This document shows positions 74-61,417 of a stretch of 61,417 nt of DNA, piece after piece. Position numbers and translations under genes: made by a program. This stretch comes from a virus. The first letter of the stretch is position 1. Each line of letters opens with the position of its first letter. Below the pieces are notes generated by a model. That model was not told the origin of the DNA and searched no databases. It saw only the letters and a program-made list of their open reading frames with translations. The stretch is taken from IMG/VR virus record IMGVR_UViG_3300045988_077264, positions 1 through 61,417 of that record; one strand, 5' to 3'.

Positions 74-102
74 AGTAATCAAAAAACCGGTAATAGTAAT
101 CA
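74..102 (+). repeat. Two AGTAATCA direct repeats (candidate integrase arm-type sites)
   Basis: AGTAATCA occurs at 74-81 and 95-102. The same octamer occurs twice at 61335-61352, next to the other att core. Confidence 0.4.
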
Positions 103-3945: not shown

Positions 3946-5552
3946 GCAAACCGGAGCTGTCCGGTCTGCTCTGCTTCTATCTGAATGTTTGGCATACGTT
4001 CCGCCACACACAGTTCCGGCAAATTTGCTCTGACAAGTGCTGCCGGTATCGGTGGACATACTGCATTGCCGCATCTTCTCACCTGCTCGCTTCTCGGATA
4101 AGTCTTCCCGGTATAATCATGGTCGATGATATAGTCGTCGGGGAATCCCTGGCATCCATACAACTCTCTTGGCTCCAACATTCGAAGTCCGATATCTACA
4201 ATCTGATAATCCACGCCCTCTATTGTCACCAGTCCGAATCTGCCCTTAGTTGTCACGGTATCAAGTGGTTTTTCAATATCTTGTCCGGTCGCATCTCCAT
4301 AATATTTAATCAAAAATGCCCTAACCTCCCCGAAGTGATCACTTGCTGTTACCGTTCCCAGTGGCTTCCGTATGTCTTGTCCTATACCAGTTTTATAAAA
4401 CTTGCTCAGAAATGATGTGACAAGTCCATAACGATTTGAACTGTCAACTGTCATTATCGGGTCTTTAATTGTCTGCCCTCTGACTTCTCCCTGTGCTGTT
4501 TCGGAATGGTACTGTATAAGCGTTGGAACCACTAACCGATTATGGTCTACAGTGGTAATTGTATCTATAGGCTCATTTACGTTACTTCCATTTCCTTGGT
4601 AGTTTCCACCATATGCCTTATCAATAATTGGTGTAAGTATAGGCTCCACTATACCAAAACCATGCTTCCCAGTAATCGTCCCCAGCGGTCTATTCAAGCT
4701 ATTACAATAATCATATTTTGCACCGCTGTGATTCACTTGCACTACAAACGGCTCTGCATTATCTATAACAAACTTTTTAAGTCCTTTTCCTATCCGGTCC
4801 ATTGTTTTCTTTGCCAGCGGTCGAACCGCACGGATGCCGTACTTTTCTTTGATTTCTTCTGATGTATCAAAGATGCTCGGGCACGGTCGGTTGAAATCAA
4901 TCTGTGTGTATGCTCCCACATAAGGTTTCAGCAATCCAGCTTTCACTTTCTCGCTGTCTGCTGGTCCATGTGTCGGCTCCGGCCATACAATTGGCTTGCC
5001 GTCACACCGAGCAATCATGAAAAATCTCTTTCGCATGGTAGGTGCTCCGTAGTCAGCAGCCACCAATTCCCTGAAATCCACTTCATACCCCAAATTGGTA
5101 AGCTGTTGCACAAACTTTTCGAAAGTCTTCCCATGTTTGCTCTTAATTGGATGATGCCGCCTGTTTAATGGGCCCCATGTTTTAAATTCTTCCACATTCT
5201 CCAGCATAATTACTCTAGGTCTAACAAGCCCTGCCCATCTGCAAGCTACCCACGCAAGACCACGGATATTCTTATCCTTTGGCTTGCCGCCCTTCGCTTT
5301 GCTGAAATGCTTACAGTCCGGTGAGAACCAGGCAAGTGCTACAGGATGTCCTTTACAAGCCTTTACCGGGTCTACTGCCCATACATTCTCGCAATAGTGC
5401 TTTGTATTCGGGTGATTCGCCTTGTGCATCTTAATAGCTTCCGGATCATGGTTGATAGCTATATCTACACTGTAGCCGGTAGCAAGTTCAATTCCGGTAG
5501 ATGCACCACCACCGCCTGCAAAGTTGTCTACGATTAGTTCTCCGTTAATCAT
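3942..5552 (-). CDS. dcm: DNA (cytosine-5) methyltransferase with repeated TRD-like units
   Basis: Motifs DNFAGGGG (I), FSPDCKHFS (IV-like), MLENVEEF (VI), QGFPDDY and RRCGNAVCPP (X). Five P-x-x-T-(I/V)-(T/D) repeat units lie between them. Confidence 0.85.
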   Translation of the reverse strand: MINGELIVDNFAGGGGASTGIELATGYSVDIAINHDPEAIKMHKANHPNTKHYCENVWAVDPVKACKGHPVALAWFSPDCKHFSKAKGGKPKDKNIRGLAWVACRWAGLVRPRVIMLENVEEFKTWGPLNRRHHPIKSKHGKTFEKFVQQLTNLGYEVDFRELVAADYGAPTMRKRFFMIARCDGKPIVWPEPTHGPADSEKVKAGLLKPYVGAYTQIDFNRPCPSIFDTSEEIKEKYGIRAVRPLAKKTMDRIGKGLKKFVIDNAEPFVVQVNHSGAKYDYCNSLNRPLGTITGKHGFGIVEPILTPIIDKAYGGNYQGNGSNVNEPIDTITTVDHNRLVVPTLIQYHSETAQGEVRGQTIKDPIMTVDSSNRYGLVTSFLSKFYKTGIGQDIRKPLGTVTASDHFGEVRAFLIKYYGDATGQDIEKPLDTVTTKGRFGLVTIEGVDYQIVDIGLRMLEPRELYGCQGFPDDYIIDHDYTGKTYPRSEQVRRCGNAVCPPIPAALVRANLPELCVAERMPNIQIEAEQTGQLRFA

Positions 5553-49244: not shown

Positions 49245-49649
49245 TTATCCTTTATTAATATCCAAAAGATAAAAAAAATGTCTGCGCATCTCATAAAATG
49301 CTGACTTTCCAATTGGCATATCTTCACATGCAATTAAATATGTAACCGGGACTTCATAACATACTGCTTTAATAATATATTGGCTCAAATCTTCTCCTGC
49401 CTGTTCTGCTGTTTCTTCAATCAACCGGCATTTTTCTTCCAATACGATTCGCTTAATTGCCAGATTTCCGGTAGCATCTGAATTGTTATGCATAATTGGC
49501 ATATCTGTTATTTCAAGACTCTTAACTGTATCCTTATTATATTTCAATTGATTTTTCCATTCCGGATACTGCTCACAAAATCCACAAAGCTCTTTGTATC
49601 GCTTACCGGAAATTCCATATTTTTCGAGATTCAAATTCCTTTTATTCAA
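49245..49649 (-). CDS. Possible ArpU/RinA-like late regulator
   Basis: 134 aa. The C-terminal IGKSAFYEMRRHFFYLLD resembles the ArpU-family tail. Weak call. Confidence 0.35.
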   Translation of the reverse strand: MNKRNLNLEKYGISGKRYKELCGFCEQYPEWKNQLKYNKDTVKSLEITDMPIMHNNSDATGNLAIKRIVLEEKCRLIEETAEQAGEDLSQYIIKAVCYEVPVTYLIACEDMPIGKSAFYEMRRHFFYLLDINKG

Positions 49650-49664
49650 ACTATCACGCTCCCT

Positions 49665-51398
49665 TTATATTCCAAGCTCGGCTCGGCTCATAATCTCAAC
49701 CTTTGTCATGCCACCATCAAATAACTGGAACAGCTGCACCAAGCCATCCGGACTATCATCATGTTCATTTTTTCCAAGTTGAGTAAACATTCCAAGTTCT
49801 TCCATTGCAGCCCTATATTCTTCACTCTGTAACTCTGGCTTAAGAAAATAGAATCTTCGTTTTATATCAGGTGCATACTGTATAATCTTTGCCATCTTGC
49901 TTATCTGGTTACTAGCTTTTGCCCAAGAAATATTGGTTTTAAAACCTTTATCTTTTAACTGGCGGTCAATATCTTCTGCGTATTCATCTCCACCATTATT
50001 GGCTTCGAATCTTTCCATATTCGGTTGATGTTGTAATGTTTTAGCCACAACAATAGGTTTTGTTGTATATTTATCTCCTTTATTGAAAATCCAATCAGGA
50101 ATATATATTGGTCCATCATCAGTACTTCCAAACAATTTTCCAAACGGCATTGACAAGCTATCATTTCCACCCCATGCAACATCACAGGCTGCTGCCGTAA
50201 TACATTCTCCATCCGGAAGAACACCGTTGTAGTAATTAAGCTCATCCAATGGGAAAAGCAAACCTTCTCGCACAAATGGCATCTGCTGATACTTTGCCAT
50301 CCATTCATTTCTATCCAACCTATCACGCATATTGCGATAGTATTCTGTAGAAAATCCAACGCCATAATCGTACTGGAAGTTTGATTCATCCTTTTCATTA
50401 AGTGCCGGTATCTTTCTAAACCGATATTTTGGATTATTCTTATTTTCCGCTTCGACACGTCCTAATGGGTCTAACACGTTCCATCGGGTTCCAACCATTA
50501 ACTCTTTGGAACCATCATTTTTACGGTCAACAAGGACGTTCAAATAATCTTGGTAGCGATTTTCAAGTCGGATAGGACTTAATGATTCAGTTCTGTCACG
50601 AACCATATCATCGACATACAAATATCCATCCGAACTAATATCAACCGCACCGGTCCATGTTCCATCAATTCCTCGGCATGTCAGTGTGGCAAAAGCTTCT
50701 GTTGGCGAATAAAACAATTCATTCTTTTCAGATGATTTATTTGCTAACTCAATCTCTGGGAATATCTCTTTGAATGTGTATTCCTCGTTTTCCGTCAGTT
50801 TTAATACATCCCGATAAAACCTGTCAGCAAGTATTCCTGAATGTCCTGACATGGCATTATGGCTCTCTGGATGTCTACCAATAACCCAGGTAAGAAAGAA
50901 GATACAGAGAGTGGACTTACCTACTCGTGGTGGGAGTGACAAACCATAGAAATCAAGCTTTCTGTCCTCCAAGTCTTGCAGATCGTCAACAACGATTTTG
51001 AGTGTCCGCATTCTCGGCTCATAGAATTTCTTTTCTGGTCGGCGATTCTTCTCCATATAGAAAAGGAATGATTCAAAATGATATAGTGCCTCTACTTTTA
51101 AAGTTCGCCAGTACAGTTCATCCATCTGTAAAATCTCAATACTGTTTTGAATCGCCCATCTGCAGCTATCCTTAATGTATGAAGTGACTTTCAACGCCCA
51201 AATCGTGTCGTTTTCCTTTTCAAATGCTACTTTCGCCACATCCAAGAGGTCAAACAGTGACCGATATTCAATTCCATGTTGTTTTATGTAATTTTTAATA
51301 TCATCAGCAGTTTCCCGCGTTTGTTCTGAAACCAAAAAAGAGCCTACCTCCCTTCTATCTTGGAAATAGGCTCTCTCTACATATGTGCCACACGGCAC
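49665..51398 (-). CDS. terL: Terminase large subunit
   Basis: The Walker A-like motif LSLPPRVGKSTL, an ATPase plus C-terminal nuclease layout, and a size of 577 aa. Confidence 0.85.
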   Translation of the reverse strand: MPCGTYVERAYFQDRREVGSFLVSEQTRETADDIKNYIKQHGIEYRSLFDLLDVAKVAFEKENDTIWALKVTSYIKDSCRWAIQNSIEILQMDELYWRTLKVEALYHFESFLFYMEKNRRPEKKFYEPRMRTLKIVVDDLQDLEDRKLDFYGLSLPPRVGKSTLCIFFLTWVIGRHPESHNAMSGHSGILADRFYRDVLKLTENEEYTFKEIFPEIELANKSSEKNELFYSPTEAFATLTCRGIDGTWTGAVDISSDGYLYVDDMVRDRTESLSPIRLENRYQDYLNVLVDRKNDGSKELMVGTRWNVLDPLGRVEAENKNNPKYRFRKIPALNEKDESNFQYDYGVGFSTEYYRNMRDRLDRNEWMAKYQQMPFVREGLLFPLDELNYYNGVLPDGECITAAACDVAWGGNDSLSMPFGKLFGSTDDGPIYIPDWIFNKGDKYTTKPIVVAKTLQHQPNMERFEANNGGDEYAEDIDRQLKDKGFKTNISWAKASNQISKMAKIIQYAPDIKRRFYFLKPELQSEEYRAAMEELGMFTQLGKNEHDDSPDGLVQLFQLFDGGMTKVEIMSRAELGI

Positions 51399-51421: not shown

Positions 51422-52630
51422 TTATTCACTTGCCTTAAAATTGTATACCGGTTTGATAATTGCAAGCACATCAACTGTATCTTTGATATTCTCAAAAATT
51501 TCATCCAATGTCTTATATGCCATTGGAGATTCATCTATTGTAGATTGATTGACAGAAGTTGTATATATTCCGTCCATTGCCTTTTCAAACTCTTCCAACG
51601 ATACTAATTCCTTGGCTTTTGTCCGGCTCATTACTCTACCGGCTCCATGAGGTGCGGATTGGTTCCAATCCTCATTTCCTTTTCCGGTACCAATAATGCA
51701 ACCGTCTCGCATATTGATTGGAATAAGTACCTTTTCTCCTAGTTTGGCTGAAATAGCGCCCTTGCGGACAATATTTGAATCATGGTCGATATAATTGTGA
51801 ATACACTCGAAGTAATCTGGCATATCGGCATCGACGTCCCATCCCATGTGGTTGCATATAATTTGAGCAATCATAACGCGGTTCATGTAGGCGAACTTCT
51901 GGCAAATTCTCATATCATGCAGATAATCTTCCCTGTATTTACCCTCTAAATAGCACAAATCCTTTGGAATATTCGGATTAACCGCCTTGAAATTTCTGTG
52001 CAATTCTGCTATGGCATTTTGAATTTCAGATTTTCTTCCAGTAGCTTTGTATTCTTCAATAATCCTGTCCTGTTCTTCATACAGTTTATCTTTGCCGCTC
52101 ATAAGTTCAAATGCAAGGTTCTGATAATAGTCAGCAACCTGTTTTCCGAGATTACGGCTACCGGTATGAATAACAAGATACTTATAACCATCCTCTGCAA
52201 CATCAACCTCAATGAAGTGATTTCCACCTCCGAGAGTGCCGATAGACCGCTCAAGCCGTTTTGTATCTCGCAATTCTCGGTAGCACTTCAAATCCTGTAA
52301 TTCATCGAATCTGATAATTCTTCCATCATGCACATCTCTTCCGCTTGGAACATAGGAACGAATCACGTTATCCAGCTTTTCAAAATCAATATCTGTCTGG
52401 CCAAGGCTTACGCAAAGCATACCGCAACCAATATCAACCCCAACAATGTTCGGTATAACTTTTTCCCCAAGGTCTGCTGTAAATCCAATAACACATCCCT
52501 TTCCGGCATGAATATCCGGCATGATACGAACTTTACAATCTTTGAATGCATCCTGTGCAAGCAATAATTCAATTTGATCTACCGCTTCCTGTTCAACGTT
52601 CTTGGTAAATATTTTTAAATCACTCATCAT
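51422..52630 (-). CDS. rtcB: RtcB-family RNA 3'-phosphate/5'-OH ligase
   Basis: VGVDIGCGM, HTGSRNLG and APHGAGR motifs. 402 aa. Confidence 0.9.
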   Translation of the reverse strand: MMSDLKIFTKNVEQEAVDQIELLLAQDAFKDCKVRIMPDIHAGKGCVIGFTADLGEKVIPNIVGVDIGCGMLCVSLGQTDIDFEKLDNVIRSYVPSGRDVHDGRIIRFDELQDLKCYRELRDTKRLERSIGTLGGGNHFIEVDVAEDGYKYLVIHTGSRNLGKQVADYYQNLAFELMSGKDKLYEEQDRIIEEYKATGRKSEIQNAIAELHRNFKAVNPNIPKDLCYLEGKYREDYLHDMRICQKFAYMNRVMIAQIICNHMGWDVDADMPDYFECIHNYIDHDSNIVRKGAISAKLGEKVLIPINMRDGCIIGTGKGNEDWNQSAPHGAGRVMSRTKAKELVSLEEFEKAMDGIYTTSVNQSTIDESPMAYKTLDEIFENIKDTVDVLAIIKPVYNFKASE

Positions 52631-52950
52631 TTCACCCCAATTCTATTGATTTTTCCGCATTTCGGACATTTGATTTCAGCCTGTCCGTTGAATTTACCTA
52701 ACAGGCGGTTGCATTTACTGCAACGATGCTCTACAAGCTGATTCTGCATCTTCCATTCGTCAATAATCTGCAGGATGAACCGCTTGCCGCTACGCATTTG
52801 GCTGTATACAACAATTTCATTTCCATTCTTTTCGCACTTTTCATATTCTCTGAGCAACTGTTTCTGAGATTCGGATAATGGAAATGGTGCGACTTCCTCT
52901 GCAAACTCCACAAGAGATATTTCATTCTCCTGTCTAGTTAATTCATTCAT
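52627..52950 (-). CDS. Protein with Com-like C-terminal zinc ribbon
   Basis: CSKCNRLLGKFNGQAEIKCPKCGKINRI resembles Mu Com. 4-nt overlap with the rtcB start. Confidence 0.45.
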   Translation of the reverse strand: MNELTRQENEISLVEFAEEVAPFPLSESQKQLLREYEKCEKNGNEIVVYSQMRSGKRFILQIIDEWKMQNQLVEHRCSKCNRLLGKFNGQAEIKCPKCGKINRIGVK

Positions 52951-53171
52951 TCTTCCACCAACTTTCTACCACACATCGGGCAAAATGCAATATAAAAATA
53001 TCCCATTGCCACTACAGACTGACTAATTAAAATACTTGGTACTTTATCCTCGCGGTCTTTAAAAATATTTGCTCTTGTCAAATTTGTCTCATTGGCGCAC
53101 TTTTTGATAGGAATATCAGCACCAAATATTTTATTATTTTCGTAATCTTTACAAAAATCACACATGCTCAT
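52947..53171 (-). CDS. Small zinc-binding protein
   Basis: CDFC...CPMCG. 74 aa, overlapping starts/stops with its neighbours. Confidence 0.4.
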   Translation of the reverse strand: MSMCDFCKDYENNKIFGADIPIKKCANETNLTRANIFKDREDKVPSILISQSVVAMGYFYIAFCPMCGRKLVEE

Positions 53172-53437
53172 ACCTCAATCAAAGTAAACTTACGAAGCGT
53201 TTTTGAATTTCCACGATGTAAAATACCATCTATATCACGATATGGCTCTTCCAACAATTGATGATGTTCTACATTTCCAAGATAAACTTTGCATGTTCTT
53301 CCCCCAATTGTAAGTTCTCCGAACATTTCACCTATTTCAGCATTGAAACCACTTACGTCATATGGAGTTTTACAATAAGGGCACGCTTCCTTATCTCTTT
53401 CGATTGGCGCACCACAATTTACACAATTTAAAATCAT
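53168..53437 (-). CDS. Small zinc-ribbon protein
   Basis: CVNCG...CPYC N-terminus. 89 aa. Confidence 0.4.
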   Translation of the reverse strand: MILNCVNCGAPIERDKEACPYCKTPYDVSGFNAEIGEMFGELTIGGRTCKVYLGNVEHHQLLEEPYRDIDGILHRGNSKTLRKFTLIEV

Positions 53438-53459
53438 GTTTATACCTCATATTTTGCAT

Positions 53460-53501
53460 AAAAAAAATACCAACCATCGAATATTGACGGTTGGTATTTT
53501 T
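53460..53501. terminator. Strong bidirectional rho-independent terminator
   Basis: ATACCAACC/GGTTGGTAT 9-bp stem, flanked by an A8 run on the left and a T-run on the right. Confidence 0.7.
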
Positions 53502-53526
53502 CATTGCAATTCACTAATAATTTATA

Positions 53527-54252
53527 TTACATTTCGTCTTTTCCTAAATTATTTCTTCGCATATTACGTTCTAAATAATATTTCTTTAGTGCTTCATCCA
53601 CTTTATCTGCATTTACCATAAAGCTATAAGTAAAACCTTCTTCATCTTTCTTGTCTTTATAAATACTTTGTTTTCCTGTGTTTTCATTTTTATTCTTCTT
53701 AAGCTCATCATAAATTAAATCTAATTTTGCGCTTAATTTATCCTCTGGAGATATATCTATACCTGAAAGGTCAGGAGCACTTGCTTTTACAATTCTTACC
53801 AACGTATTAATCCTTCCTTCTTTTGTTGATATAATTGCATCTTTAATTTTTTCCCTTGCCTCTAATACATTTTCATATAATCTATCGCTTTGATAATAAA
53901 TCGTACTAATTCCGCTCACGTCAAAAATGTTCTCGGTTATATTATCTTGTATTAAAACAACAGGCTTATCATAAGCCTGCCTTAGTCCTAATTCATATAA
54001 TACATTTGGATTCCTATTACTCAAATCACATATTGCCATTGGACACTCTTGAATTGCATCAAAAATTTTATTAATGATTGTATCACTAATTTTATTTTCA
54101 TCAACACGATATGGTATATATCCAGCATTTTCAACAGCAGGCTTAATAATTTGTTCATACACTTTGGTAAAATGACCTTTAGGATAATCTCCCTGGTCAC
54201 TAATTGGCATAATTACAAAGCACTTTTCTTTATCTTTTGTATTATTTTCCAC
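53527..54252 (-). CDS. Nucleoside 2-deoxyribosyltransferase-like / TIR-like fold protein (unknown function)
   Basis: The N-terminal pattern CFVIMPISD...ICDLSNRNPNVLYELGLRQAYDKPVVLIQD is typical of that Rossmann-like superfamily. It lies directly downstream of the tRNA-like array and upstream of the terminator. Confidence 0.4.
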   Translation of the reverse strand: MENNTKDKEKCFVIMPISDQGDYPKGHFTKVYEQIIKPAVENAGYIPYRVDENKISDTIINKIFDAIQECPMAICDLSNRNPNVLYELGLRQAYDKPVVLIQDNITENIFDVSGISTIYYQSDRLYENVLEAREKIKDAIISTKEGRINTLVRIVKASAPDLSGIDISPEDKLSAKLDLIYDELKKNKNENTGKQSIYKDKKDEEGFTYSFMVNADKVDEALKKYYLERNMRRNNLGKDEM

Positions 54253-54327
54253 AACAGATTCCTCCTTTGTATTAATATATCTATATTACCATTTTGACCG
54301 TCAATATTCAATTATCAATGTTCAAAA

Positions 54328-54431
54328 TAGCGACACAGGGAATCGAACCCTGTCAGATCAAACCATGCCAACCGCTTTCAAATCTGCAATTTCTAGTCAC
54401 GGAAGAGTTTTCTGTTTCCAATAATGCCGCT
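54328..54431 (-). ncRNA. tRNA-like RNA T1 (acceptor + T-arm closed, non-canonical 72-nt body)
   Basis: On the minus strand, the 5' AGCGGCA pairs 7/7 with the 3' TGTCGCT. T-arm: CAGGG-TTCGATT-CCCTG. No D or anticodon cloverleaf could be drawn. Confidence 0.4.
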
Positions 54432-54500
54432 ACCATCAATAAGTCTCCCATCGACCAGAACTATTGCAGTAGCACCTGACTAAGTGGAGATAAGGATAAG

Positions 54501-54586
54501 CGCAGTGCGTAGGACTCGAACCTACAAGGCGAATAAACGCCCGACCGGATAGCAACCGGCTCCAATTCCAATTATGGGAACACTTC
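54501..54586 (-). tRNA. tRNA-Ser (anticodon GCU), class II, no encoded CCA
   Basis: Hand fold: acceptor GAAGTGT/GCACTGC (6/7), D-stem CCA/TGG with GG in the loop, anticodon arm GCCGG-TTGCTAT-CCGGT, 18-nt variable arm GGCG/CGCC, and T-arm GTAGG-TTCGAGT-CCTAC. Confidence 0.7.
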
Positions 54587-54651
54587 CGAATTTTCTTGTA
54601 TCGTCAAGAACATTAGGAAAGAAACGACGGATACCTTTCTTGCTGGAGTTA

Positions 54652-54790
54652 TGCCCGCAGGTGGATTTGAACCACCATTCTGCAACCTTGCTTACTCCGA
54701 TTATTTCAAGCGGAAAGTGCCGGAATCGAACCGACCTCACGGATTATTGGTGTACCTCACCGTAATTGCTGCCTTGCGATATACCTTTCC
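54652..54790 (-). ncRNA. Composite tRNA-like unit (T4 80-nt element plus 5'-truncated tRNA-Ser(UGA)-like T3)
   Basis: T4 (54711-54790): acceptor GGAAAGG/ACTTTCC (6/7) and T-arm GTCGG-TTCGATT-CCGGC. T3 (54652-54717): TTCCG-CTTGAAA(TAAT)-CGGAG, variable arm GCAA-GG-TTGC and T-arm GGTGG-TTCAAAT-CCACC, but no 5' acceptor or D arm. Confidence 0.35.
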
Positions 54791-54922
54791 ATACTCGTCA
54801 ACGAACTTTCATCGTCCTGTTTCCACACTTTTTAAGTCGACAATGCTTCCATCACAAGAAAAACATCATTTATTACACTAAAACTCGTCAGTCTTATCAC
54901 ATAAACAATATTTTACAACGCA

Positions 54923-55012
54923 TGGGGAAGAGAGGAATTGAACCTCCAATGTTTACCACTTGGGAACTGATTTACAGTCAGCTGCAACACCGCCAATCGT
55001 TGCCGCTTCCCC
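54923..55012 (-). tRNA. tRNA-Tyr (anticodon GUA), class II, no encoded CCA
   Basis: Acceptor GGGGAAG/CTTCCCC (7/7), D-arm GCAAC-GATTGGCGGT-GTTGC, anticodon arm GCTGA-CTGTAAA-TCAGT, 18-nt variable region, and T-arm GGAGG-TTCAATT-CCTCT. Confidence 0.8.
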
Positions 55013-55089
55013 AAAATGCGCGGACACCTCACTCCGTATCTCTGTATGCGACCGCGCTACGCATACAGTATCAAATCAGCTCGGCACCA

Positions 55090-55182
55090 TCGGAACGGAA
55101 GGATTCGAACCCCCGACTTTCCATCTTTCGATGTCGTGAATTAACACACGCTTGAACGCTCTTGCCAACGAGCTACGTTCCG
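55090..55182 (-). ncRNA. tRNA-like RNA T6 (canonical acceptor, D and T arms with about 20 extra nt in the anticodon region)
   Basis: Acceptor CGGAACG/CGTTCCG (7/7), TA, D-arm GCTC-GTTGGCAA-GAGC and T-arm GGGGG-TTCGAAT-CCTTC. There are 42 nt where about 22 are expected, forming the hairpins CGTG-TGTTAATT-CACG and CATC-GAAA-GATG. Confidence 0.45.
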
Positions 55183-55528
55183 AAACCGCCATCAGACGGT
55201 TAGCAATAATGTTTTTCGTGCCATGCATCGCACTATCCGGTTTGAAGCCTTTCACCGGCAACTCTTTTCATAGCTCAGGCACCGTGGGATAGGCACCCGA
55301 ACAATCAAGTTTGACTGCTATATGGATTGCTCGTCAGCAAATTATGGAGTGACCATCACTCATCACCATATAGGCTTACGTCTAATGCCGCGCTCCGCGG
55401 CAATAACCACCGGACGGTCTCGCACCGTCCTTAACAGAATCGTCCTAGTGGCTGAAAGGTATCTCTATGCCAAACAATGGTATATAACCACGCCGCCAGA
55501 TAGAAAACAATCAAAAACTATCCGGCAA
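55183..55528 (-). ncRNA. 346-nt GC-richer, hairpin-dense non-coding RNA candidate flanked by tRNA-like elements
   Basis: Many perfect stems on the minus strand: GCCGGATAG/CTATCTGGC, GGACGGT/ACCGTCC, GCCGCG/CGCGGC, GAGTGA/TCACTC, TTGCT/AGCAA, GTGC/GCAC and ACCG/CGGT. No credible ORF. Confidence 0.45.
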
Positions 55529-55607
55529 TCAAAGTAAAAGGATTCGAACCTTTGAGTTTCTTTCTCCAGTTCCATTTTCTGTATGCTTGAAAATTAACTG
55601 TACTTCG
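55529..55607 (-). ncRNA. tRNA-like RNA T7 (acceptor + T-arm closed, aberrant body)
   Basis: Acceptor CGAAGTA/TACTTTG (7/7 including one G-U) and T-arm AAAGG-TTCGAAT-CCTTT. The body folds as CAGTT..TTTTC-AAGCATACA-GAAAA..AACTG plus GAG-AAAGAAA-CTC. Confidence 0.35.
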
Positions 55608-55611
55608 CTTT

Positions 55612-55764
55612 TTATTTCCAAATTAGCAACAAGTTTAATACCAATAGCACAATTATTAAACTAACTCCATGTTTTGCTTCTGTACCTTCTACCTTAGATG
55701 AAGCCAACAACGAAATCAGGAACAAATCTAAGAGACTTACTATATCTTTTAAAATTATTCTCAC
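55612..55764 (-). CDS. Possible 50-aa hydrophobic peptide
   Basis: GTG start 10 nt after GGAGAG, with two hydrophobic stretches. Ends 5 nt before T7. Weak call. Confidence 0.25.
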   Translation of the reverse strand: MRIILKDIVSLLDLFLISLLASSKVEGTEAKHGVSLIIVLLVLNLLLIWK

Positions 55765-55789
55765 CTTTTAATCACTCTCCATTTTTTCA

Positions 55790-56131
55790 TTAGTCTTCAA
55801 AACTATGTTCTCTTTTAAATTCTTCCATCTCTTTTACGCTCATACCAATTATTCCTGCTGATTCGTCAGAACCGGTATGCTGAAAGAAATCTCCTTCCTG
55901 TGGAAACATGAACCGGAACATTGCATAATTCGCAACGTCGCACAGATATTCAAGATTCCCAGTTTCTTCGAATCTGGCAAGGCATTTTTTCAAACTTCCA
56001 ATCGCATCAACGTTTCCGGTTGCAAAATTCAAATGTGCAGGTCCGTATTTATAATAGCTCTGCTCAATCAATCCTTTACGTTTTTCATCAAATGCCTTGG
56101 AATACTCTGTTTTCATGATTACTTCATTCAT
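55790..56131 (-). CDS. Hypothetical phage protein (113 aa)
   Basis: The start is set at MNEVIMKTEY, with an ATGAATGA overlap with the upstream small ORF. Confidence 0.45.
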   Translation of the reverse strand: MNEVIMKTEYSKAFDEKRKGLIEQSYYKYGPAHLNFATGNVDAIGSLKKCLARFEETGNLEYLCDVANYAMFRFMFPQEGDFFQHTGSDESAGIIGMSVKEMEEFKREHSFED

Positions 56132-56276
56132 CTTTGCTCTCCCAGTCATCGCAACTATGTTTATACTCAACAAAATAGCCATCATACTCACTTTCTATGT
56201 TTGAGCATTCATAACCATCTGTTTTATCATAATTTGCATACTTGCAAGTACCACAGCACTGTTTGCAACTTGCCAT
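56124..56276 (-). CDS. Cys-rich 50-aa protein
   Basis: MASCKQCCGTCKYANYD...ECS...SCDDWE. RBS GAGAGGAAGG. Below the ORF-track length cut-off. Confidence 0.4.
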   Translation of the reverse strand: MASCKQCCGTCKYANYDKTDGYECSNIESEYDGYFVEYKHSCDDWESKDE

Positions 56277-56392
56277 TACATATCGCCTTCCTCTCTATAT
56301 GCTCCTTTAAAGCCTTTTTTATTTAAAATTTTTTTTTGAAAACCGTTATCGAATGTAACTTTTTGAATTTTATCTGATGTGGAAAATTGAAT

Positions 56393-56626
56393 TCAGAAAA
56401 CTCCGTTGACGTAAAATATACCGCTCAACAGTTTATTATTTATCGTTATTGGGGGTTCTGATAAAACCCCAGCATGTTTAAAACATTTAGCAGTACGATT
56501 ATTGCAGATAACACATCTAAGATTATTCGCGTCTTTATACTGCTTAAGGATTGCTTGAAATTCTTCATCCGTAGATGTTCTTAACAACGCATATCCATTT
56601 TGAATTCCTTCAAGTTTAGCAATCAT
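56393..56626 (-). CDS. Hypothetical small protein
   Basis: 77-aa ORF with a GAGAGGTGG RBS. Confidence 0.4.
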   Translation of the reverse strand: MIAKLEGIQNGYALLRTSTDEEFQAILKQYKDANNLRCVICNNRTAKCFKHAGVLSEPPITINNKLLSGIFYVNGVF

Positions 56627-56937
56627 TTAGACCACCTCTCGTAACTTTGTAGAAATTATGTGGCATCGTATTCATATCTTGTTTATTGGCAGGCGGTCTT
56701 TTTATTAAATTTCACCTTGACCTACTCAGTTAGACCCTGGGGACCGTTTCCAGTAGACCCCTCCCGGGGGTACCAAGAATACAAACAATTTAAAAACATT
56801 TTAAACAATTCTTTCTGGATTTCTTTATCTATTCGCAAAACATCAGTTAAACGAAAAGTTATCCGGTTCTTAAATCTCCGCAAGCCTTGATTTTACTGGA
56901 TTTCTAAATTGTATAGAATTGTGTGTCTGATTTACAA

Positions 56938-57561
56938 TTAAAAATCTGCGTTCGGTGGTTCTAATTGTGTGTCATTTACAGACAATTCAGCCGGCTTGTA
57001 TCTCTGCTGTATCTGCTCTATGCTCTGGGTCTTGCTGCTTCCCTGCTCTCTTACCCCTGGCATATTAAAGCCGCAGTACTTATTAAGTGACGGCATATAG
57101 TTCATTGGATTTCCCTTTCCTGAGACCTGCAAACCGACAAGGCTTTCTTCACGCATTAAGTTAATCTTTTTGCAGATGTCGGAGCCTAGGGAACCGAGTT
57201 GCACGCCATTAACCCAACCGTTCAATGTATCTCTATGTATTCCAGTAAAGAAGGTAAAGCCTGTTATATTAATTATCTTTTCATAATCATTGCAAAGGTC
57301 TATATATATATCTAATATATTATTAACCTTTTCTGTATCATAAGCATTATTAATATTATTATCTTCTTTCAAGTATTTAGGGTTTAACTTAAATACATTT
57401 TCATAGATGTATTTACAACAGTTATACCATCTATTCTGTGATACTTTGCATAAATCCTCTATATTTCTTTCATCCATCCAGAGATGTATATACATGTCTA
57501 TATCATTTTTAAAAACATCAACAGAATTATTATTTAACTCTTGTACTTTTATCTTTGACAT
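56938..57561 (-). CDS. terS: Putative terminase small subunit
   Basis: ITGFTFFTGIHRDTLNGWVNG, an HTH like those of small terminases. ATG at 57561 follows GGAAAGGAGA. It is the first gene of the late region. Confidence 0.5.
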   Translation of the reverse strand: MSKIKVQELNNNSVDVFKNDIDMYIHLWMDERNIEDLCKVSQNRWYNCCKYIYENVFKLNPKYLKEDNNINNAYDTEKVNNILDIYIDLCNDYEKIINITGFTFFTGIHRDTLNGWVNGVQLGSLGSDICKKINLMREESLVGLQVSGKGNPMNYMPSLNKYCGFNMPGVREQGSSKTQSIEQIQQRYKPAELSVNDTQLEPPNADF

Positions 57562-58054: not shown

Positions 58055-58240
58055 TTAATCCCAGTTAATCGCATCATGTGGTGTTAATTCGCTATTATCT
58101 GCCTTGGCTTCTTCAAGTGCTGCCAGTTCGTCCGCTTCCGGTTTATCTTCCGGGATGAATTTAATAACAACCCTGTAAAGTGTTTCTATATCTTCATCAG
58201 GTACTAAATCAATTATATTTTTCAACGCTTCTTTGCTCAT
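58055..58240 (-). CDS. Acidic small protein downstream of the RelE-like toxin (antitoxin candidate)
   Basis: 61 aa with ...PEDKPEADELAALEEAKADNSELTPHDAINWD. RBS AAGGAGGG. Starts 12 nt after the toxin stop. Confidence 0.45.
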   Translation of the reverse strand: MSKEALKNIIDLVPDEDIETLYRVVIKFIPEDKPEADELAALEEAKADNSELTPHDAINWD

Positions 58241-58252
58241 TTTTAACCCTCC

Positions 58253-58492
58253 TTATATTCTCTTATATGCCTGTCCTCTTGGTAATATGTCATTTATAAT
58301 TATTATATCTTCCTTGATTGAAAATAATATTCTAAGATCTCCAACCCTTAAGCGAAAATCATTTTCTAACCCTGCTAACTTTTTCACATCTCCAAGCGGC
58401 AATTTTTCTATCGCAATTTTCAGCCTTTGCTTGGTAGCTCTGTCGCAAGAGTTAATATATTTTACTGCTTTCTTTTTGTACTCTATTTGCAT
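58253..58492 (-). CDS. RelE/ParE-family toxin
   Basis: MQIEYKKKAVKYINS...LENDFRLRVGDLRILFSIKEDIIIINDILPRGQAYK. ATG at 58492 follows AAAGGAGA. Confidence 0.7.
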   Translation of the reverse strand: MQIEYKKKAVKYINSCDRATKQRLKIAIEKLPLGDVKKLAGLENDFRLRVGDLRILFSIKEDIIIINDILPRGQAYKRI

Positions 58493-58531
58493 CTTTGGTA
58501 TCTCCTTTCTTTTGATACCTACATTATATGT

Positions 58532-58920
58532 TAAGTGCATTATATAGTCAATATTATAAGTGCATTATTTTCTATATTTTTCCATTCTTTCCAATTCTGC
58601 TGCAACAACTTCTTTTATAAATGTACTAGGGTTTTTAACTCCAACCGCTTGCATTCTGTCCCTTGTTCCGGCTGGAAAAATTACATTTATTCTATCATTC
58701 TTCTTTTCATACTCTCGAACCGCTTTTCTCTGTGCAGCCGAAGTTTTCAATTCTATTTCGCTCATGCGTTATACCTCGCTTATATTCATAATTCTTTAGA
58801 TAAGTATATAATAAGTGCATTATTTTGTCAATTTATAAGTGCATTATACATTATGCACAATTTGATATTATGTATAAGTGCATTATTTTGTTTATTTAAT
58901 CAATTGTATAAGTGCATTAT
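58532..58920 (+). repeat. Six direct copies of TAAGTGCATTAT (operator/iteron-like)
   Basis: Copies at 58532, 58557, 58812, 58836, 58875 and 58909, all in the same orientation. Five of them share the extended form TATAAGTGCATTAT. Confidence 0.7.
58565..58765 (-). CDS. Ribbon-helix-helix-like small DNA-binding protein
   Basis: RINVIFPAGTRDRMQAVGVKNPSTFIKEVVAAEL fits a beta-alpha-alpha (RHH) pattern. The gene is flanked on both sides by the TAAGTGCATTAT repeats. Confidence 0.5.
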   Translation of the reverse strand: MSEIELKTSAAQRKAVREYEKKNDRINVIFPAGTRDRMQAVGVKNPSTFIKEVVAAELERMEKYRK

Positions 58921-58956: not shown

Positions 58957-59313
58957 ATGAAAGCGAGGTTTTCCAATATGAAAGATTATACAAAATTTAT
59001 GAAATGGGCCGTTGTTTACATGATTGATAGAAAGACTCAAGACAACCGGAAAAGCAAGGTACAGGTTGAAGCGCTGTTCTCAAGTGCAACACAGGCGAAC
59101 GACAATTATATAATTCACAATCCGGAGCATAAGCGCTATATCATCCACATTGACGATTTAGAAGAGTTTGAAACCATTTATAACCAGTTTCAGGACTTAC
59201 GCGAGAAATACGGAGAATATGCAATTTTTCACATCGAAGATTTAAAACTCGGATGCGATAAAGAAAATAAATACAGATATATTTTAAATGTTTATACAAG
59301 TATTGATTTTTAG
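58957..59313 (+). CDS. Small hypothetical protein (ORF1 of the right-arm operon)
   Basis: The ORF ends at TAG 59311-59313. The likely start is 58978 (GAGG 9 nt upstream) or 58957. Confidence 0.45.
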   Translation: MKARFSNMKDYTKFMKWAVVYMIDRKTQDNRKSKVQVEALFSSATQANDNYIIHNPEHKRYIIHIDDLEEFETIYNQFQDLREKYGEYAIFHIEDLKLGCDKENKYRYILNVYTSIDF

Positions 59314-59378
59314 CCGAAACGCTCCGCCCTGGAGCGTCAGCCGCGGGATGGTCGCCCGGCTCTGATGATGGCAGACCA
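59313..59378 (+). ncRNA. Type II hammerhead ribozyme candidate HH1
   Basis: GCC-GAAAC, stem III GCUCC/GGAGC, GUC (C17 = 59338), stem I AGCCG/CGGCU, CUGAUGA (59362-59368), then GGC. Loop I UGGUC pairs with GACCA (59374-59378). Confidence 0.65.
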
Positions 59379-59390
59379 GAAAGGAAAAAT

Positions 59391-59780
59391 ATGACAACAT
59401 TGAAAATTGAAAATAATAAAATCTATAGCACTTCTGCACTTTGTGAAAGAACTGACGTTTTTGAAATCGTGGAGAAAATCCCAACTGGCTTTTTCGTTTG
59501 GGGAATTGGCGAAAACATGGGAACACATGAATATATTCCAGTTTGCGAGGACTTACACCCGGAAGACAAAGACAATTTTGAAATCAATCTTACAACCCTT
59601 AAAGCCGTAAAAGTTGCGCCGGATGAATGGGAAAAGCTCGACAAAGCGGCATCTTGGGGCATTGGAAACCTTAAACAGGCAGAAAAAGCCTTGAAAAGTA
59701 AACGCCACGGCTACACAGCCGACAGGAAAAGGGCCGCCGCAGAACTTACAATTGATATTTTCCGCAGAATTTGCAAATAG
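59391..59780 (+). CDS. Hypothetical protein (ORF2, between the two hammerheads)
   Basis: 129-aa ORF with an AAAGGAAAAAT RBS. Confidence 0.5.
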   Translation: MTTLKIENNKIYSTSALCERTDVFEIVEKIPTGFFVWGIGENMGTHEYIPVCEDLHPEDKDNFEINLTTLKAVKVAPDEWEKLDKAASWGIGNLKQAEKALKSKRHGYTADRKRAAAELTIDIFRRICK

Positions 59781-59844
59781 TCGAAACCGCCGCCAGGCGG
59801 TCTGCAGGAACTGTGCCCTACCTGCACCGATGAGACAGGGCACA
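59780..59844 (+). ncRNA. Type II hammerhead-like element HH2 (U4-to-C core variant)
   Basis: GUC-GAAAC, stem III CGCC/GGCG, GUC (C17 = 59802), stem I UGCAGG/CCUGCA, CCGAUGA, then GAC. Loop I UGUGCCCU pairs with AGGGCACA (59837-59844). Confidence 0.5.
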
Positions 59845-60063: not shown

Positions 60064-60240
60064 ATGGAATTTATGGAGAAATTGCAGAAACAGAAAGACG
60101 ATGCGCGAGCCGCTTATATTAAAGCCCGGAACGAATGGGCGGACACCAGAACCGCTGAAAACATTAAGGGCGACTTTGAAAAATGGAAAATCTTGTGTGA
60201 CCGAAAAGCAGATTGTATGCGCTTTGGTGTACTTATTTAA
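60064..60240 (+). CDS. Small helical protein (ORF4, 58 aa)
   Basis: MEFMEKLQKQKDDARAAYIKARNEW... ATG follows GAAAGGTCGG. Preferred over the overlapping TTG-start ORF 60056-60295. Confidence 0.4.
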   Translation: MEFMEKLQKQKDDARAAYIKARNEWADTRTAENIKGDFEKWKILCDRKADCMRFGVLI

Positions 60241-60285
60241 GCAAGCGGCGGCGTTTTCCGGGGTTCGATTCCCCGGCTTGCTTTT
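60241..60285 (+). terminator. Terminator-like hairpin shaped as a tRNA acceptor/T-arm minihelix
   Basis: GCAAGC...CGGGG-TTCGATT-CCCCG-GCTTGC-TTTT, with a 5-bp T-stem, a canonical T-loop and a contiguous 6-bp acceptor-like stem. Confidence 0.5.
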
Positions 60286-60570: not shown

Positions 60571-61126
60571 CTCAAATTTGAGTAATTACAGAAAAGACAC
60601 CAAGATTTAGTGCGGCGCTCTTCTGCTTTCCGTGCGCCTGGTGGCATTTGTGCCGGTTCAATTCCGACAGCATGGATTTTCTGGGGAATGTTCCCAGAAT
60701 GTACATTGACAATTGAATATCTGGAAATGATGCGTTATTATATGAATAGTATATATCTTATTTGGATTAATTAAGATTTAAAGAATTCAAAAGAACATTA
60801 AATATTATCACACATGAATTAATATGACATCGTAAAACGATTTTTAAGGCTTTTATATCCTCAATCAATAAAATTATAGGCTGTATAAGTCAAATCGAAA
60901 TTTAAGCCATTCAGAGTGTCACACGGTCATATTATAATCATCATTGAATTGATATTGAGAAAGTGGATATTGTTAAAAAGTTGTAAGGATTTGAAAAAAT
61001 AAATTTTTCAGATTTCTACAAGAAATTTTCAAAACTTGAAATCGAGATTTTCATAACAGAAACGAGCTTACCCCGGGGGGTATCAAAATCAAATGCATAT
61101 ATTTTTAAATCGAAAGGAGAAAAATT

Positions 61127-61389: not shown

Positions 61390-61417
61390 TTAATGCCGGC
61401 AGCGGGACTTGAACCCG
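61390..61417. repeat. att core copy (3' part of the tRNA gene that continues beyond the window)
   Basis: Identical to 1-28. The tRNA 5' part would lie to the right of the window. Confidence 0.8.

What the first reader, a model, noticed from the sequence alone, without database searches (positions are those of the whole stretch)
51422..55764. RNA island wedged between terS and terL: RtcB ligase, tRNA/tRNA-like array, structured RNA and a deoxyribosyltransferase/TIR-like protein
About 5.5 kb separates the putative small terminase (56938-57561) from terL (49665-51398), whereas these genes are normally adjacent. The insert contains several small ORFs and a run of about 1.3 kb with no credible ORF (54300-55610). 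That run holds seven T-arm signatures (GGTTCGA-type) on the minus strand. Two fold as ordinary class II tRNAs (Ser-GCU and Tyr-GUA). At least four fold only as acceptor-stem plus T-arm closed RNAs with aberrant bodies. There is also a 346-nt hairpin-dense RNA. A 241-aa NDT/TIR-like protein follows before a strong terminator (53460-53501). A second unit then encodes three zinc-ribbon proteins and RtcB, overlapping or abutting one another. RtcB seals 2',3'-cP/5'-OH breaks, such as those left by anticodon nucleases and self-cleaving ribozymes. Phage tRNAs are known to compensate for tRNA-targeting defence nucleases. Co-localisation of a ligase, substitute tRNAs and non-canonical tRNA mimics suggests a tRNA repair or decoy counter-defence module, or an RNA-processing system. 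The tRNA-like elements could act as RNase P/Z punctuation for the large RNA.
Basis: partly seen in the sequence, partly recalled or inferred. Interest (0 to 1): 0.8.

Follow-up and report, generated by a model that had tools for sequence, protein, structure and literature searches.

The report
Phage tRNA island with tRNA-shaped RNAs
A gut (Roseburia-type) temperate phage carries, just upstream of its large terminase gene, a 1.3-kb block of RNA genes holding two ordinary tRNAs, several conserved tRNA-shaped RNAs that cannot decode, and a new ~185-nt structured RNA; the neighbouring RtcB RNA ligase is an optional extra gene, not an obligate partner.

Summary
On the minus strand of 54328-55607 there are seven T-arm motifs. 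Two belong to class II tRNAs (Tyr-GUA, Ser-GCU). Five belong to tRNA-shaped elements without a normal anticodon arm. A structured RNA lies at 55183-55528 (conserved core 55268-55452). RtcB, three zinc-ribbon ORFs, a TIR/NDT-like ORF and a strong terminator are also where stated.

The odd elements are not decaying pseudogenes. Element H and the structured RNA B recur in dozens of related gut-phage contigs with compensatory base-pair changes. Neither B nor H matches any Rfam family; only element C reaches the tRNA threshold.

The proposed RtcB-plus-array module is only partly supported. Of 37 relatives with the island and terL, 28 lack RtcB. Closely related RtcB genes sit in phages with no tRNA-like motif nearby. 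RtcB is a precise 1.2-kb cassette, and the 241-aa gene sits in a variable slot.

Similar tRNA-like minihelices, and two hammerhead ribozymes, lie at gene junctions in the early operon.

Best reading: a co-transcribed RNA-gene array cut out by host RNase P/Z. It supplies two tRNAs and stable tRNA-scaffolded RNAs of unknown target. RtcB is an independent RNA-repair accessory.

The parts
56938..57561 (-). Putative small terminase (ORF may start at 57630). It is the first gene after the promoter-like site 57752-57724.
   Evidence: No Pfam, PHROG or NCBIfam hit. The AF2 model has pLDDT 34. Homologue P0232 is named 'Putative bacteriophage terminase small subunit' by a source. Promoter-like site and upstream terminator.
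55790..56191 (-). 133-aa ORF of unknown function. It is the constant upstream neighbour of the RNA island.
   Evidence: tblastn finds it at 76-100% identity directly upstream of the island in most island-bearing loci. No family hit.
55529..55607 (-). Element A: a tRNA-shaped RNA with a 7-bp acceptor stem, a T-arm, a long arm replacing the D and anticodon arms, and a small variable hairpin.
   Evidence: Fold. Rfam tRNA 21.6 bits, below threshold. Five variants in 22 loci. Many relatives (e.g. L008-L010) have tRNA-Gln(ttg) shortly upstream of B, the place A holds here.
55183..55528 (-). Structured RNA B. The conserved core is 55268-55452. It has a 5' domain, a hairpin, a three-way junction and a 16-bp 3' hairpin with the invariant loop CUAUCCCA.
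   Evidence: z = -3.6. Nine helices and 60 pairs, 97.3% paired; 21 pairs have changes on both sides, against at most 6 in slid controls. 64 viral contigs carry the 23-nt core motif. A profile finds B in 42 of 80 independently sampled relatives. Best Rfam hit is RAGATH-36 at 14.9 bits against a gathering score of 70. Many G-U pairs fix the strand.
55090..55182 (-). Element C: a tRNA scaffold (acceptor CGGAACG, D-arm, T-arm) whose anticodon arm is replaced by two small hairpins.
   Evidence: Rfam tRNA 40.2 bits with a 32-nt insert. Acceptor, D and T parts are near-invariant while the centre is swapped (A1). At least five different central bodies occur on the same scaffold, and all fold with the scaffold closed. 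Relaxed ARAGORN calls disagree: Asn with an intron, or His.
54922..55013 (-). tRNA-Tyr (GUA), class II.
   Evidence: ARAGORN. Rfam tRNA 27.2 bits in the window and 37.2 bits for the L002 copy. 98-100% identical copies in relatives.
54711..54791 (-). Element E: a tRNA-shaped RNA with a 6-bp arm and a 17-nt loop in place of the anticodon arm.
   Evidence: Fold. 13 variants in 21 loci, mean identity 94%, with a compensatory change in the T-stem of L089.
54645..54698 (-). Element F: a T-arm stacked on a 4-bp stem (GCAG/CUGC), inside an outer 5-bp stem (GGAGU/ACUCC).
   Evidence: Fold plus reading of the sequence. Nine variants in 17 loci. There is too little variation to test the pairs.
54500..54587 (-). 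tRNA-Ser (GCU), class II, with an A2-G71 mismatch in the acceptor stem compared with relatives.
   Evidence: ARAGORN. Alignment with the L004 and L011 copies shows a compensated anticodon stem and the acceptor mismatch. Relatives' copies score 50.6 bits.
54328..54499 (-). A hairpin domain (54436-54499) followed by element H (54328-54431). H is a 104-nt tRNA-shaped RNA with a 7-bp acceptor stem, an unpaired segment with an invariant GG, a long composite arm with the invariant loop UUGCAG, and a T-arm.
   Evidence: 23 distinct sequences: 95.8% of cells paired; 13 of 23 pairs changed on both sides; 0 of 500 shuffles reach this; slid controls give at most 2 (A3). 34 variants in 60 loci. A profile finds H in 32 of 80 independent relatives.
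53527..54252 (-). 241-aa TIR/NDT-like protein, an accessory gene in a variable slot.
   Evidence: PADLOC TIR effector, E 9e-7. Pfam CAP12-PCTIR, E 0.0076, below cut-off. phrog_3634. AF2 model pLDDT 58 with a Rossmann-like beta-alpha order. Foldseek E values are about 0.003-0.02, mostly NDT, DNPH1 and TIR. Found in none of the 146 loci then held. Relatives carry other genes in this slot.
53460..53501 (-). Intrinsic terminator that closes the island and 241-aa unit.
   Evidence: 17-bp stem, -25.6 kcal/mol, z = -7.8, then a U-run. Conserved in relatives.
52627..53437 (-). Three small zinc-ribbon ORFs: 89 aa (53168-53437), 74 aa (52947-53171) and 107 aa (52627-52950, Com-like).
   Evidence: Pfam Zn_ribbon_Com and Zn_ribbon_3. 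PHROG and NCBIfam hits. They are present next to terL in many relatives that lack RtcB.
51422..52630 (-). RtcB RNA ligase, an optional 1.2-kb cassette between the 107-aa zinc-ribbon ORF and terL.
   Evidence: Pfam PF01139, E 1e-61; phrog_1075, E 4e-134. The motifs DIGCGM, GGGNHF, HTGSR and PHGAGR are visible in the translation. The cassette is absent from L100 and L148.
49665..51398 (-). Large terminase subunit.
   Evidence: phrog_38, E 3e-51.

Best explanation
The interval between the putative terS and terL is an accessory-cargo hotspot at the head of the packaging operon of a temperate Lachnospiraceae (Roseburia-type) phage.

**The RNA array.** Its core is a mosaic array of RNA genes on the minus strand. 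I infer that the array is transcribed from the promoter-like site upstream of terS and ends at the terminator at 53460-53501. I further infer that host RNase P and RNase Z cut the transcript at each tRNA-shaped unit.

**Products.**
- Two decoding tRNAs (Tyr-GUA and Ser-GCU).
- At least five non-decoding RNAs (A, C, E, F, H) that use a tRNA acceptor/T-arm frame as a natural scaffold for other RNA bodies.
- The ~185-nt structured RNA B, which lies between A and C.

**What they do.** The bodies of H, E and B are conserved in sequence and in pairing, so I infer that they bind specific, still unknown host or phage partners. They are not merely cleavage marks.

**Independent cassettes.**
- RtcB is a separately gained cassette. 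It seals 2',3'-cyclic-phosphate/5'-OH breaks in trans, most plausibly tRNAs nicked by host nucleases.
- The 241-aa TIR/NDT-like gene occupies a variable accessory slot.

**Shown versus inferred.** Shown: the anatomy, the conservation, the covariation and the separability of the cassettes. Inferred: co-transcription, RNase P/Z processing, RNA stability and any target.
For: **Anatomy.**

**Covariation.**
- H: 13 of 23 pairs changed on both sides, 95.8% paired.
- B: 21 of 60 pairs changed on both sides, 97.3% paired.
- Scaffold behaviour of C: constant acceptor, D and T parts with at least five bodies.

**Prevalence.**
- Of 520 distinct T-arm contexts in the related loci, 294 lie outside ARAGORN tRNAs. 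244 of these had enough flank to be clustered, and they fall into 56 clusters.
- Relatives carry canonical tRNAs (Gln, Glu, Met, Asn, Ser, Tyr, Arg) in the same array.

**Mosaic structure.** Homology breaks fall at element borders.

**Punctuation.** A minihelix family (33 variants in 56 loci) starts at the stop codon of the upstream ORF. It lies beside two hammerhead ribozymes at neighbouring gene junctions.

**Transcription signals.** Terminator. Promoter-like site and upstream terminator.

**RtcB is separable.**

**Variable slot for the 241-aa gene.**

**Precedent.** T4 makes two small RNAs of unknown role from its tRNA region (PMC3014915).
Against: - There are no expression or end-mapping data, so co-transcription and RNase P/Z cleavage are untested.
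- The related contigs are mostly close relatives from a few human-gut data sets. Some apparent covariation may therefore reflect a few inherited events.
- The B structure was derived from the same alignment on which the pairs were counted.
- Elements A and F vary too little for a pairing test.
- No partner or target has been identified for any of these RNAs.
- The promoter scan found no more sites than shuffled sequence (26 against 26.9).
Confidence: 0.55

Rival explanations
1. Dedicated counter-defence module. RtcB and the tRNA-like RNAs work together, either as decoys or spare substrates for host tRNA nucleases, or as precursors that need RtcB ligation.
For: RtcB lies 0.9 kb downstream of the array in this phage and in about a quarter of island-bearing relatives. 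RtcB substrates are the ends left by anticodon nucleases and by the hammerhead ribozymes found in this genome. Phage tRNAs paired with RNA ligases are a described repair theme (PMC7824862, PMC10264068).
Against: 28 of 37 island-bearing relatives that reach terL lack RtcB. Only 10 of 80 in an independent sample have it. RtcB genes 71-82% identical occur with no T-arm motif within 7 kb. RtcB is a clean cassette indel. The tRNA-like elements lack a 7-nt anticodon loop, the usual nuclease target. A strong terminator separates the two units.
Confidence: 0.15
2. Pure punctuation. The tRNA-shaped elements are only RNase P/Z cleavage signals that segment and stabilise the operon transcript. Their bodies and RNA B have no function of their own.
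For: Minihelices of acceptor stem plus T-arm are sufficient RNase P substrates (established knowledge). The early-operon minihelix sits exactly at a stop codon, at a junction equivalent to those occupied by hammerhead ribozymes. The body of element C is freely exchangeable.
Against: The bodies of H and E and the whole of B are strongly conserved in sequence. They have invariant loops (UUGCAG in H, CUAUCCCA in B) and compensated helices. A bare cleavage mark would not need these.
Confidence: 0.2
3. Decay. The odd elements are pseudogenes and fragments left by recombination within a phage tRNA array.
For: Relatives have canonical tRNAs at some of the same positions. The array is mosaic, with breakpoints at element borders. 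Element F and the window's Ser tRNA show imperfections.
Against: H, E, B and the C scaffold are kept in many contigs with compensatory changes and near-invariant segments. Outside the T-arm the elements share no sequence with any canonical tRNA in the set.
Confidence: 0.07

Closest known systems
Phage tRNA gene clusters with extra small RNAs (T4 tRNA region with RNAC and RNAD)
   Same: An array of tRNA genes in a phage genome also yields small stable RNAs that are not tRNAs and have no known role (PMC3014915).
   Different: Here the extra RNAs outnumber the tRNAs. Most are built on a tRNA acceptor/T-arm frame. They form several families conserved across many gut-phage contigs. The array sits between the putative terS and terL. 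No homology to the T4 RNAs was tested.
Phage RNA-repair sets: tRNAs plus an RNA ligase (T4 Pnk/Rnl1; RtcB or Rnl in jumbo phages)
   Same: A phage encodes both tRNAs and an RtcB ligase able to reseal nuclease-cut tRNAs (PMC7824862; Pfam hit).
   Different: The linkage is facultative in this phage group. No RtcA, Pnk, Hen1 or Ro partner was seen among the ORFs scanned between 49245 and 57630.
tRNA-like processing signals (mitochondrial tRNA punctuation, plant t-elements, MALAT1 mascRNA)
   Same: Acceptor-stem plus T-arm structures without decoding ability lie at transcript junctions. The window elements give weak mascRNA-model hits of 19-24 bits.
   Different: Those are eukaryotic or organellar systems. 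Cleavage here is untested. Several elements carry conserved bodies beyond what a cleavage mark needs.
tmRNA tRNA-like domain and bacterial Y-RNA-like YrlA
   Same: A tRNA mimic with an acceptor stem, a T-arm and an unpaired D-loop-like segment carrying GG. The anticodon arm is replaced by another helix, as in element H.
   Different: ARAGORN finds no tmRNA and there is no tag ORF. No tmRNA or Y RNA family reaches its Rfam threshold; the only tmRNA-model hit in the island is 10 bits. No Ro/TROVE protein was seen among the ORFs scanned between 49245 and 57630. The whole window was not scanned for protein families.
RAGATH-type RNAs near hammerhead and twister ribozymes in phages
   Same: Structured RNAs of unknown role lie in phage regions that also hold type II hammerheads. 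The relative Dulem virus 39 has RAGATH-27, a hammerhead, tRNAs and a B-like RNA upstream of rtcB.
   Different: No RAGATH family reaches threshold in the window. The best is RAGATH-36 at 14.9 bits against 70.

Membership tests
Canonical tRNA | Cloverleaf with a 7-bp acceptor stem, D-arm, 5-bp anticodon stem with a 7-nt loop, and T-arm, as recognised by ARAGORN or the Rfam RF00005 threshold. | tested here: met
   Met for Tyr 54922-55013 and Ser 54500-54587 only (ARAGORN). The Rfam scores of the window copies are marginal (27.2 bits for Tyr; 29.2 bits on the Sec model for Ser).
Canonical tRNA | The same features, applied to elements A, C, E, F and H. | tested here: not met
   ARAGORN makes no call. 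C reaches 40.2 bits only by skipping a 32-nt insert. A scores 21.6, E 19.1 and H 19.2 bits (mascRNA model), all below threshold. Relaxed ARAGORN calls are mutually inconsistent.
RtcB RNA ligase (PF01139) | Full-length match to the family profile, plus the metal- and GMP-binding motifs. | tested here: met
   PF01139 E 1e-61 and phrog_1075 E 4e-134. The motifs DIGCGM, GGGNHF, HTGSR and PHGAGR are visible in the translation. Their assignment to catalytic roles rests on my own knowledge.
RtcB-centred RNA repair operon (rtcBA / rsr-yrlA type) | RtcB linked to RtcA, a Ro/Rsr protein and Y-like RNAs, or obligately linked to its RNA partners. | tested here: not met
   No RtcA or TROVE hit among the neighbouring ORFs. 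No Y RNA or YrlA hit. RtcB is absent from 28 of 37 island-bearing relatives.
   cmscan at E up to 10 on 53400-57000 and on 55240-55480 returns none of them.
Hammerhead ribozyme type II | Rfam RF02276 match with the CUGAUGA and GAAA core and three helices. | tested here: met
   59312-59380 (+) scores 69.9 bits against a threshold of 37. It lies outside the finding. A second copy at 59779-59844 scores 31 bits with CCGAUGA and is below threshold.
TIR / nucleoside 2-deoxyribosyltransferase-like fold | A significant profile or fold match, and a conserved catalytic glutamate. | tested here: inconclusive
   PADLOC TIR effector E 9e-7. Pfam E 0.0076, below cut-off. AF2 pLDDT 58. No Foldseek hit has E of 0.001 or better, although NDT, DNPH1 and TIR dominate the list. 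E87 is invariant in the motif NPNVxYELG.
Small terminase subunit | Family profile match or the terS fold, and position upstream of terL. | tested here: inconclusive
   No Pfam, PHROG, NCBIfam or PDB-profile match. The model is unusable. The only support is a source name for homologue P0232 and its position as the first gene of the operon.
tRNA-like punctuation / RNase P-Z processing signals | Cleavage by RNase P at the 5' side and by RNase Z at the 3' side of the tRNA-like unit in vivo. | not testable with these tools
   Only the positional evidence could be obtained: the elements abut one another and, in the early operon, a stop codon.

The most novel reading that the evidence does not exclude
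The tRNA-shaped RNAs are natural tRNA scaffolds. The phage uses the host's tRNA maturation and stabilisation machinery to express small functional RNA bodies, together with RNA B. These bodies bind or titrate specific host factors, such as tRNA-sensing regulators, tRNA-directed nucleases or ribosome-binding sites. They would form a previously undescribed class of phage anti-host small RNAs, exchanged as cassettes among Lachnospiraceae phages.
Probability: 0.25. Interest if true: 0.8.

Novelty: new variant of a known kind. Interest (0 to 1): 0.55.

Why it matters
Phage tRNA genes are usually read as codon supplements or as replacements for tRNAs cut by host defences. In this phage group more T-arm-bearing elements fall outside ARAGORN tRNA calls than inside them (294 against 226 distinct contexts). 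Several of these elements are conserved, and two (H and B) show compensatory changes. Neither B nor H matches an Rfam family. This gives several concrete candidate RNA families (B, H, E, the C scaffold and the stop-codon minihelix) in abundant human-gut phages. It also suggests that phages use a tRNA frame as a carrier for other RNAs, as biotechnologists do with tRNA scaffolds. Finally, it corrects a tempting guilt-by-association inference: RtcB next to the array is an independent cassette.

Tried and rejected
**RNA family searches**
- Rfam at gathering and at E up to 10 on the island gave only tRNA-type hits and noise. A RAGATH-36 hit at 14.9 bits was rejected.
- I first read the repeated CTGACGAG strings as possible hammerhead cores. 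The W..W covariation shows that the one in B is the hairpin UUGCWGACGWGCAA, so that idea was dropped for B. The other occurrences were not examined.
- Intron-containing tRNA reading: ARAGORN with introns at default stringency adds nothing. At low stringency it gives contradictory identities.
- tmRNA: none found.

**Hammerhead-RtcB coupling**
- Hammerhead-like motifs flank the early gene in 78 of 80 relatives, but RtcB is present in only 10. Rejected.

**Sequence searches that found little**
- The search for related loci with the 241-aa protein in viral contigs found nothing.
- blastn of the whole region against GenBank phages found only the RtcB and 241-aa coding matches.

**Protein structure**
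- The structure prediction of the putative terS failed (pLDDT 34). Its profile search against the PDB gave nothing useful.

**Opposite-strand reading of B**
- A Shine-Dalgarno-like sequence plus ATG lies on the other strand. I rejected this reading because the helices contain many G-U pairs that would become A-C on that strand.

**Literature**
- Searches found no description of these RNAs.

Full report
**1. What is in the sequence**

All genes from about 57.6 kb down to 0.1 kb lie on the minus strand. Reading that strand, the order is as follows.

- A terminator-like hairpin (58034-58012) and a promoter-like site (57752-57724).
- A 207/230-aa ORF, the putative terS (56938-57561/57630).
- ORFs of 77, 133 and 50 aa.
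- A 1.3-kb stretch with no credible ORF (54300-55610). Its GC content is 0.43-0.50, against 0.27-0.39 in the flanks.
- A 241-aa ORF (53527-54252).
- A hairpin terminator at 53455-53510: -25.6 kcal/mol, z = -7.8, followed by a U-run.
- Three small zinc-ribbon ORFs, then RtcB (51422-52630) and terL (49665-51398).

The T-arm pattern GGTTCRAWTCC occurs seven times on the minus strand between 54339 and 55550. The window holds 19 matches against 3.7 expected.

**2. The RNA elements**

ARAGORN calls only tRNA-Ser(gct) 54500-54586 and tRNA-Tyr(gta) 54922-55013. Rfam at gathering thresholds reports nothing in the island. In E-value mode it gives these results:

| Element | Coordinates | Best Rfam result |
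|---|---|---|
| C | 55090-55182 | tRNA 40.2 bits, with a 32-nt insert where the anticodon arm should be |
| A | 55529-55607 | tRNA 21.6 bits |
| E | 54711-54791 | tRNA-Sec model 19.1 bits |
| H (3' part) | 54329-54376 | mascRNA model 19.2 bits |

No ROOL, GOLLD, HDV-like, twister, group I or Y RNA match appears. Each odd element folds with a closed acceptor stem and T-arm but an aberrant centre. ARAGORN with introns allowed adds nothing at default stringency. At low stringency it gives contradictory identities.

**3. Relatives**

- Searching IMG/VR with RtcB returned 79 loci.
- Searching with a 23-nt motif from RNA B returned 64 loci.
- Searching with an early-gene product returned 80 more.
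- The same B motif occurs in a Roseburia MAG and in a Clostridia MAG, which suggests the host group.
- The window ends in a 28-bp direct repeat next to an integrase, so the phage is temperate.
- Relatives with RtcB at least 90% identical carry canonical tRNAs upstream of rtcB: Gln, Glu, Met, Asn, two Ser, Tyr and Arg.
- The window's array is a mosaic of the same region. Homology breaks fall at element borders.

**4. The odd elements are conserved RNAs, not debris**

*Element H.* H (54328-54431) has 23 distinct homologues. On a five-helix model, 95.8% of cells are paired. Thirteen of 23 pairs changed on both sides. None of 500 shuffles reaches this, and slid controls give at most 2. H has a 7-bp acceptor stem and an unpaired segment with an invariant GG. 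It also has a composite arm ending in the invariant loop UUGCAG, and a T-arm.

*RNA B.* The core (55268-55452) has nine helices, including a three-way junction. On 12 diverse sequences, 97.3% of cells are paired and 21 of 60 pairs changed on both sides. Slid controls give at most 6. One caveat applies: this structure was predicted from the same alignment. Many G-U pairs fix the transcribed strand as that of the tRNAs.

B is modular. Its 5' domain, or its three-way junction, occurs alone in some contigs, and the junction is swapped for another hairpin in L207.

*Element E.* E is 94% identical across 11 distinct sequences, with one compensated T-stem pair.

*Element C.* C keeps its acceptor, D-arm and T-arm nearly unchanged but carries at least five unrelated central bodies. 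This is how a scaffold behaves.

*Census.* Across the related loci there are 520 distinct T-arm contexts. Of these, 226 lie inside ARAGORN tRNAs and 294 outside. The 244 outside contexts with enough flank to be compared fall into 56 clusters. H is the largest, with 34 variants in 60 loci. Outside the T-arm these elements share no sequence with any canonical tRNA in the set.

**5. RtcB and the 241-aa gene are separable cassettes**

- Of 37 B-motif loci that reach terL, 9 have RtcB and 28 do not.
- In the sample drawn through the early gene, 10 of 80 have RtcB, although most carry T-arm elements.
- RtcB genes 71-82% identical (L018-L069 and others) lie in contigs with no T-arm motif within 7 kb.
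- In L100 and L148 the flanks are 73-95% identical to the window. There, window 52624-51416 is replaced by about 214 nt.
- The 241-aa gene was found in none of the 146 loci then held. Its slot holds a 242-aa membrane-type protein in L002 and a 204-aa protein in L008.
- The N-terminal domain of the 241-aa protein is common in temperate phages of several genera.
- Its family assignment is weak but consistent. PADLOC TIR effector gives E 9e-7. The model has pLDDT 58. Foldseek hits, mostly to NDT, DNPH1 and TIR structures, have E of about 0.003-0.02.

**6. The same theme elsewhere in the genome**

On the plus strand a type II hammerhead lies at 59312-59380 (69.9 bits). A weaker copy lies at 59779-59844 (31 bits, CCGAUGA). 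Together they flank ORF 59391-59780. Hammerhead-like motifs flank the homologous gene in 78 of 80 relatives.

One junction further on, a tRNA-like minihelix (60240-60282) begins at the stop codon of the upstream ORF. Its family has 33 variants in 56 loci, and the coding sequence before the stop codon differs between them. Self-cleaving ribozymes and acceptor/T-arm minihelices therefore occupy equivalent intergenic positions. This is the best indirect support for an RNA-processing role.

**7. Interpretation**

I read the island as a co-transcribed RNA-gene array, excised by host RNase P and RNase Z. It supplies two tRNAs and several tRNA-scaffolded RNAs plus RNA B. The conserved bodies of these RNAs imply specific, unknown partners.

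RtcB is an independent RNA-repair accessory, as described for other phages (PMC7824862). The closest precedent for extra RNAs in a phage tRNA cluster is T4 RNAC and RNAD, whose roles are unknown (PMC3014915).

Transcription, processing and targets are inferred. None was measured.

**8. Rivals**

- A dedicated RtcB / tRNA-mimic module is disfavoured by the presence/absence data and by the lack of anticodon loops.
- Pure punctuation does not explain the invariant loops and the compensated bodies.
- Decay is contradicted by the covariation.

**9. Limits**

- Most relatives come from a few gut data sets and are close, so the independent events are fewer than the cell counts suggest.
- Elements A and F are untestable for lack of variation.
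- The terS label remains unverified.

Noticed in passing
window 59312-59380 (+) and 59779-59844 (+): Two type II hammerhead ribozymes flank ORF 59391-59780. One scores 69.9 bits. The other scores 31 bits, has CCGAUGA in the core and is below the Rfam threshold. Hammerhead-like motifs flank the homologous gene in 78 of 80 relatives, independently of RtcB.
   Followed up: yes
window 60240-60282 (+): A tRNA-like minihelix (GCAAG / T-arm CCGGGGUUCGAUUCCCCGG / CUUGC) begins at the stop codon of the upstream ORF and is followed by a small hairpin and the next RBS. The family has 33 variants in 56 loci, with differing coding sequence before the stop codon.
   Followed up: partly
window 60610-60690 (+): Another T-arm-like element (GCCGGUUCAAUUCCGAC) lies after a terminator-like hairpin. 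Its family has 21 variants in 30 loci. No structure test was done.
   Followed up: no
window 1-28 and 61390-61417; ORF 100-1329 (-): A 28-bp direct repeat, TTAATGCCGGCAGCGGGACTTGAACCCG, sits at both ends of the window. It is the reverse complement of a T-arm plus 3' acceptor strand. It lies next to a tyrosine integrase (PF00589, E 1e-18). This looks like att sites in a tRNA or tmRNA 3' end, or a terminal assembly overlap.
   Followed up: partly
window 58253-58540 (-) and 58055-58240 (-): A ParE/RelE-type toxin-like ORF (PF05016, E 7e-4, below cut-off) is followed by a 61-aa acidic ORF. The pair sits just upstream of the packaging operon and may be a toxin-antitoxin pair.
   Followed up: no
window 49245-49649 (-): An ArpU-family late-regulator-like ORF (phrog_11237; TIGR01637, E 3.5e-4) lies between terL and the portal gene. 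Regulators of this kind usually sit upstream of terS.
   Followed up: no
L001 (Dulem virus 39, PP511791.1) 1418-1482, 5588-5671, 4815-7053, 6159-6297: This sequenced phage from lemur faeces has the same layout upstream of rtcB. It carries a type II hammerhead, a RAGATH-27 RNA (77.2 bits), four canonical tRNAs and a diverged copy of RNA B with compensated hairpins.
   Followed up: partly
window 55455-55466 (-) and the equivalent 5' flank of B in relatives: Most copies of B are preceded by CCUCCUUUC, which resembles the 3' end of 16S rRNA (the anti-Shine-Dalgarno sequence). The window has ACCUUUC. The 3' hairpin loop CUAUCCCA is invariant and C-rich. This hints that B could pair with ribosome-binding sites. 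It was not tested.
   Followed up: no
L121:4314-4425, L199 near 4824, L145 near 546, L008:4403-4497: The element C scaffold (acceptor CGGAACG, D-arm, T-arm) carries at least five unrelated central bodies. One has a nested second T-arm, and one has the anticodon arm simply deleted.
   Followed up: partly
L002:4182-4910 and L008:5719-6333: The slot that holds the 241-aa TIR/NDT-like gene in the window holds different membrane-type proteins in relatives, as expected for a variable accessory-gene slot.
   Followed up: partly
cluster n110 (e.g. L136 near 2996), not in the window: A further non-canonical T-arm family (19 variants in 68 loci) is widespread in the related phages but absent from this window.
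   Followed up: no
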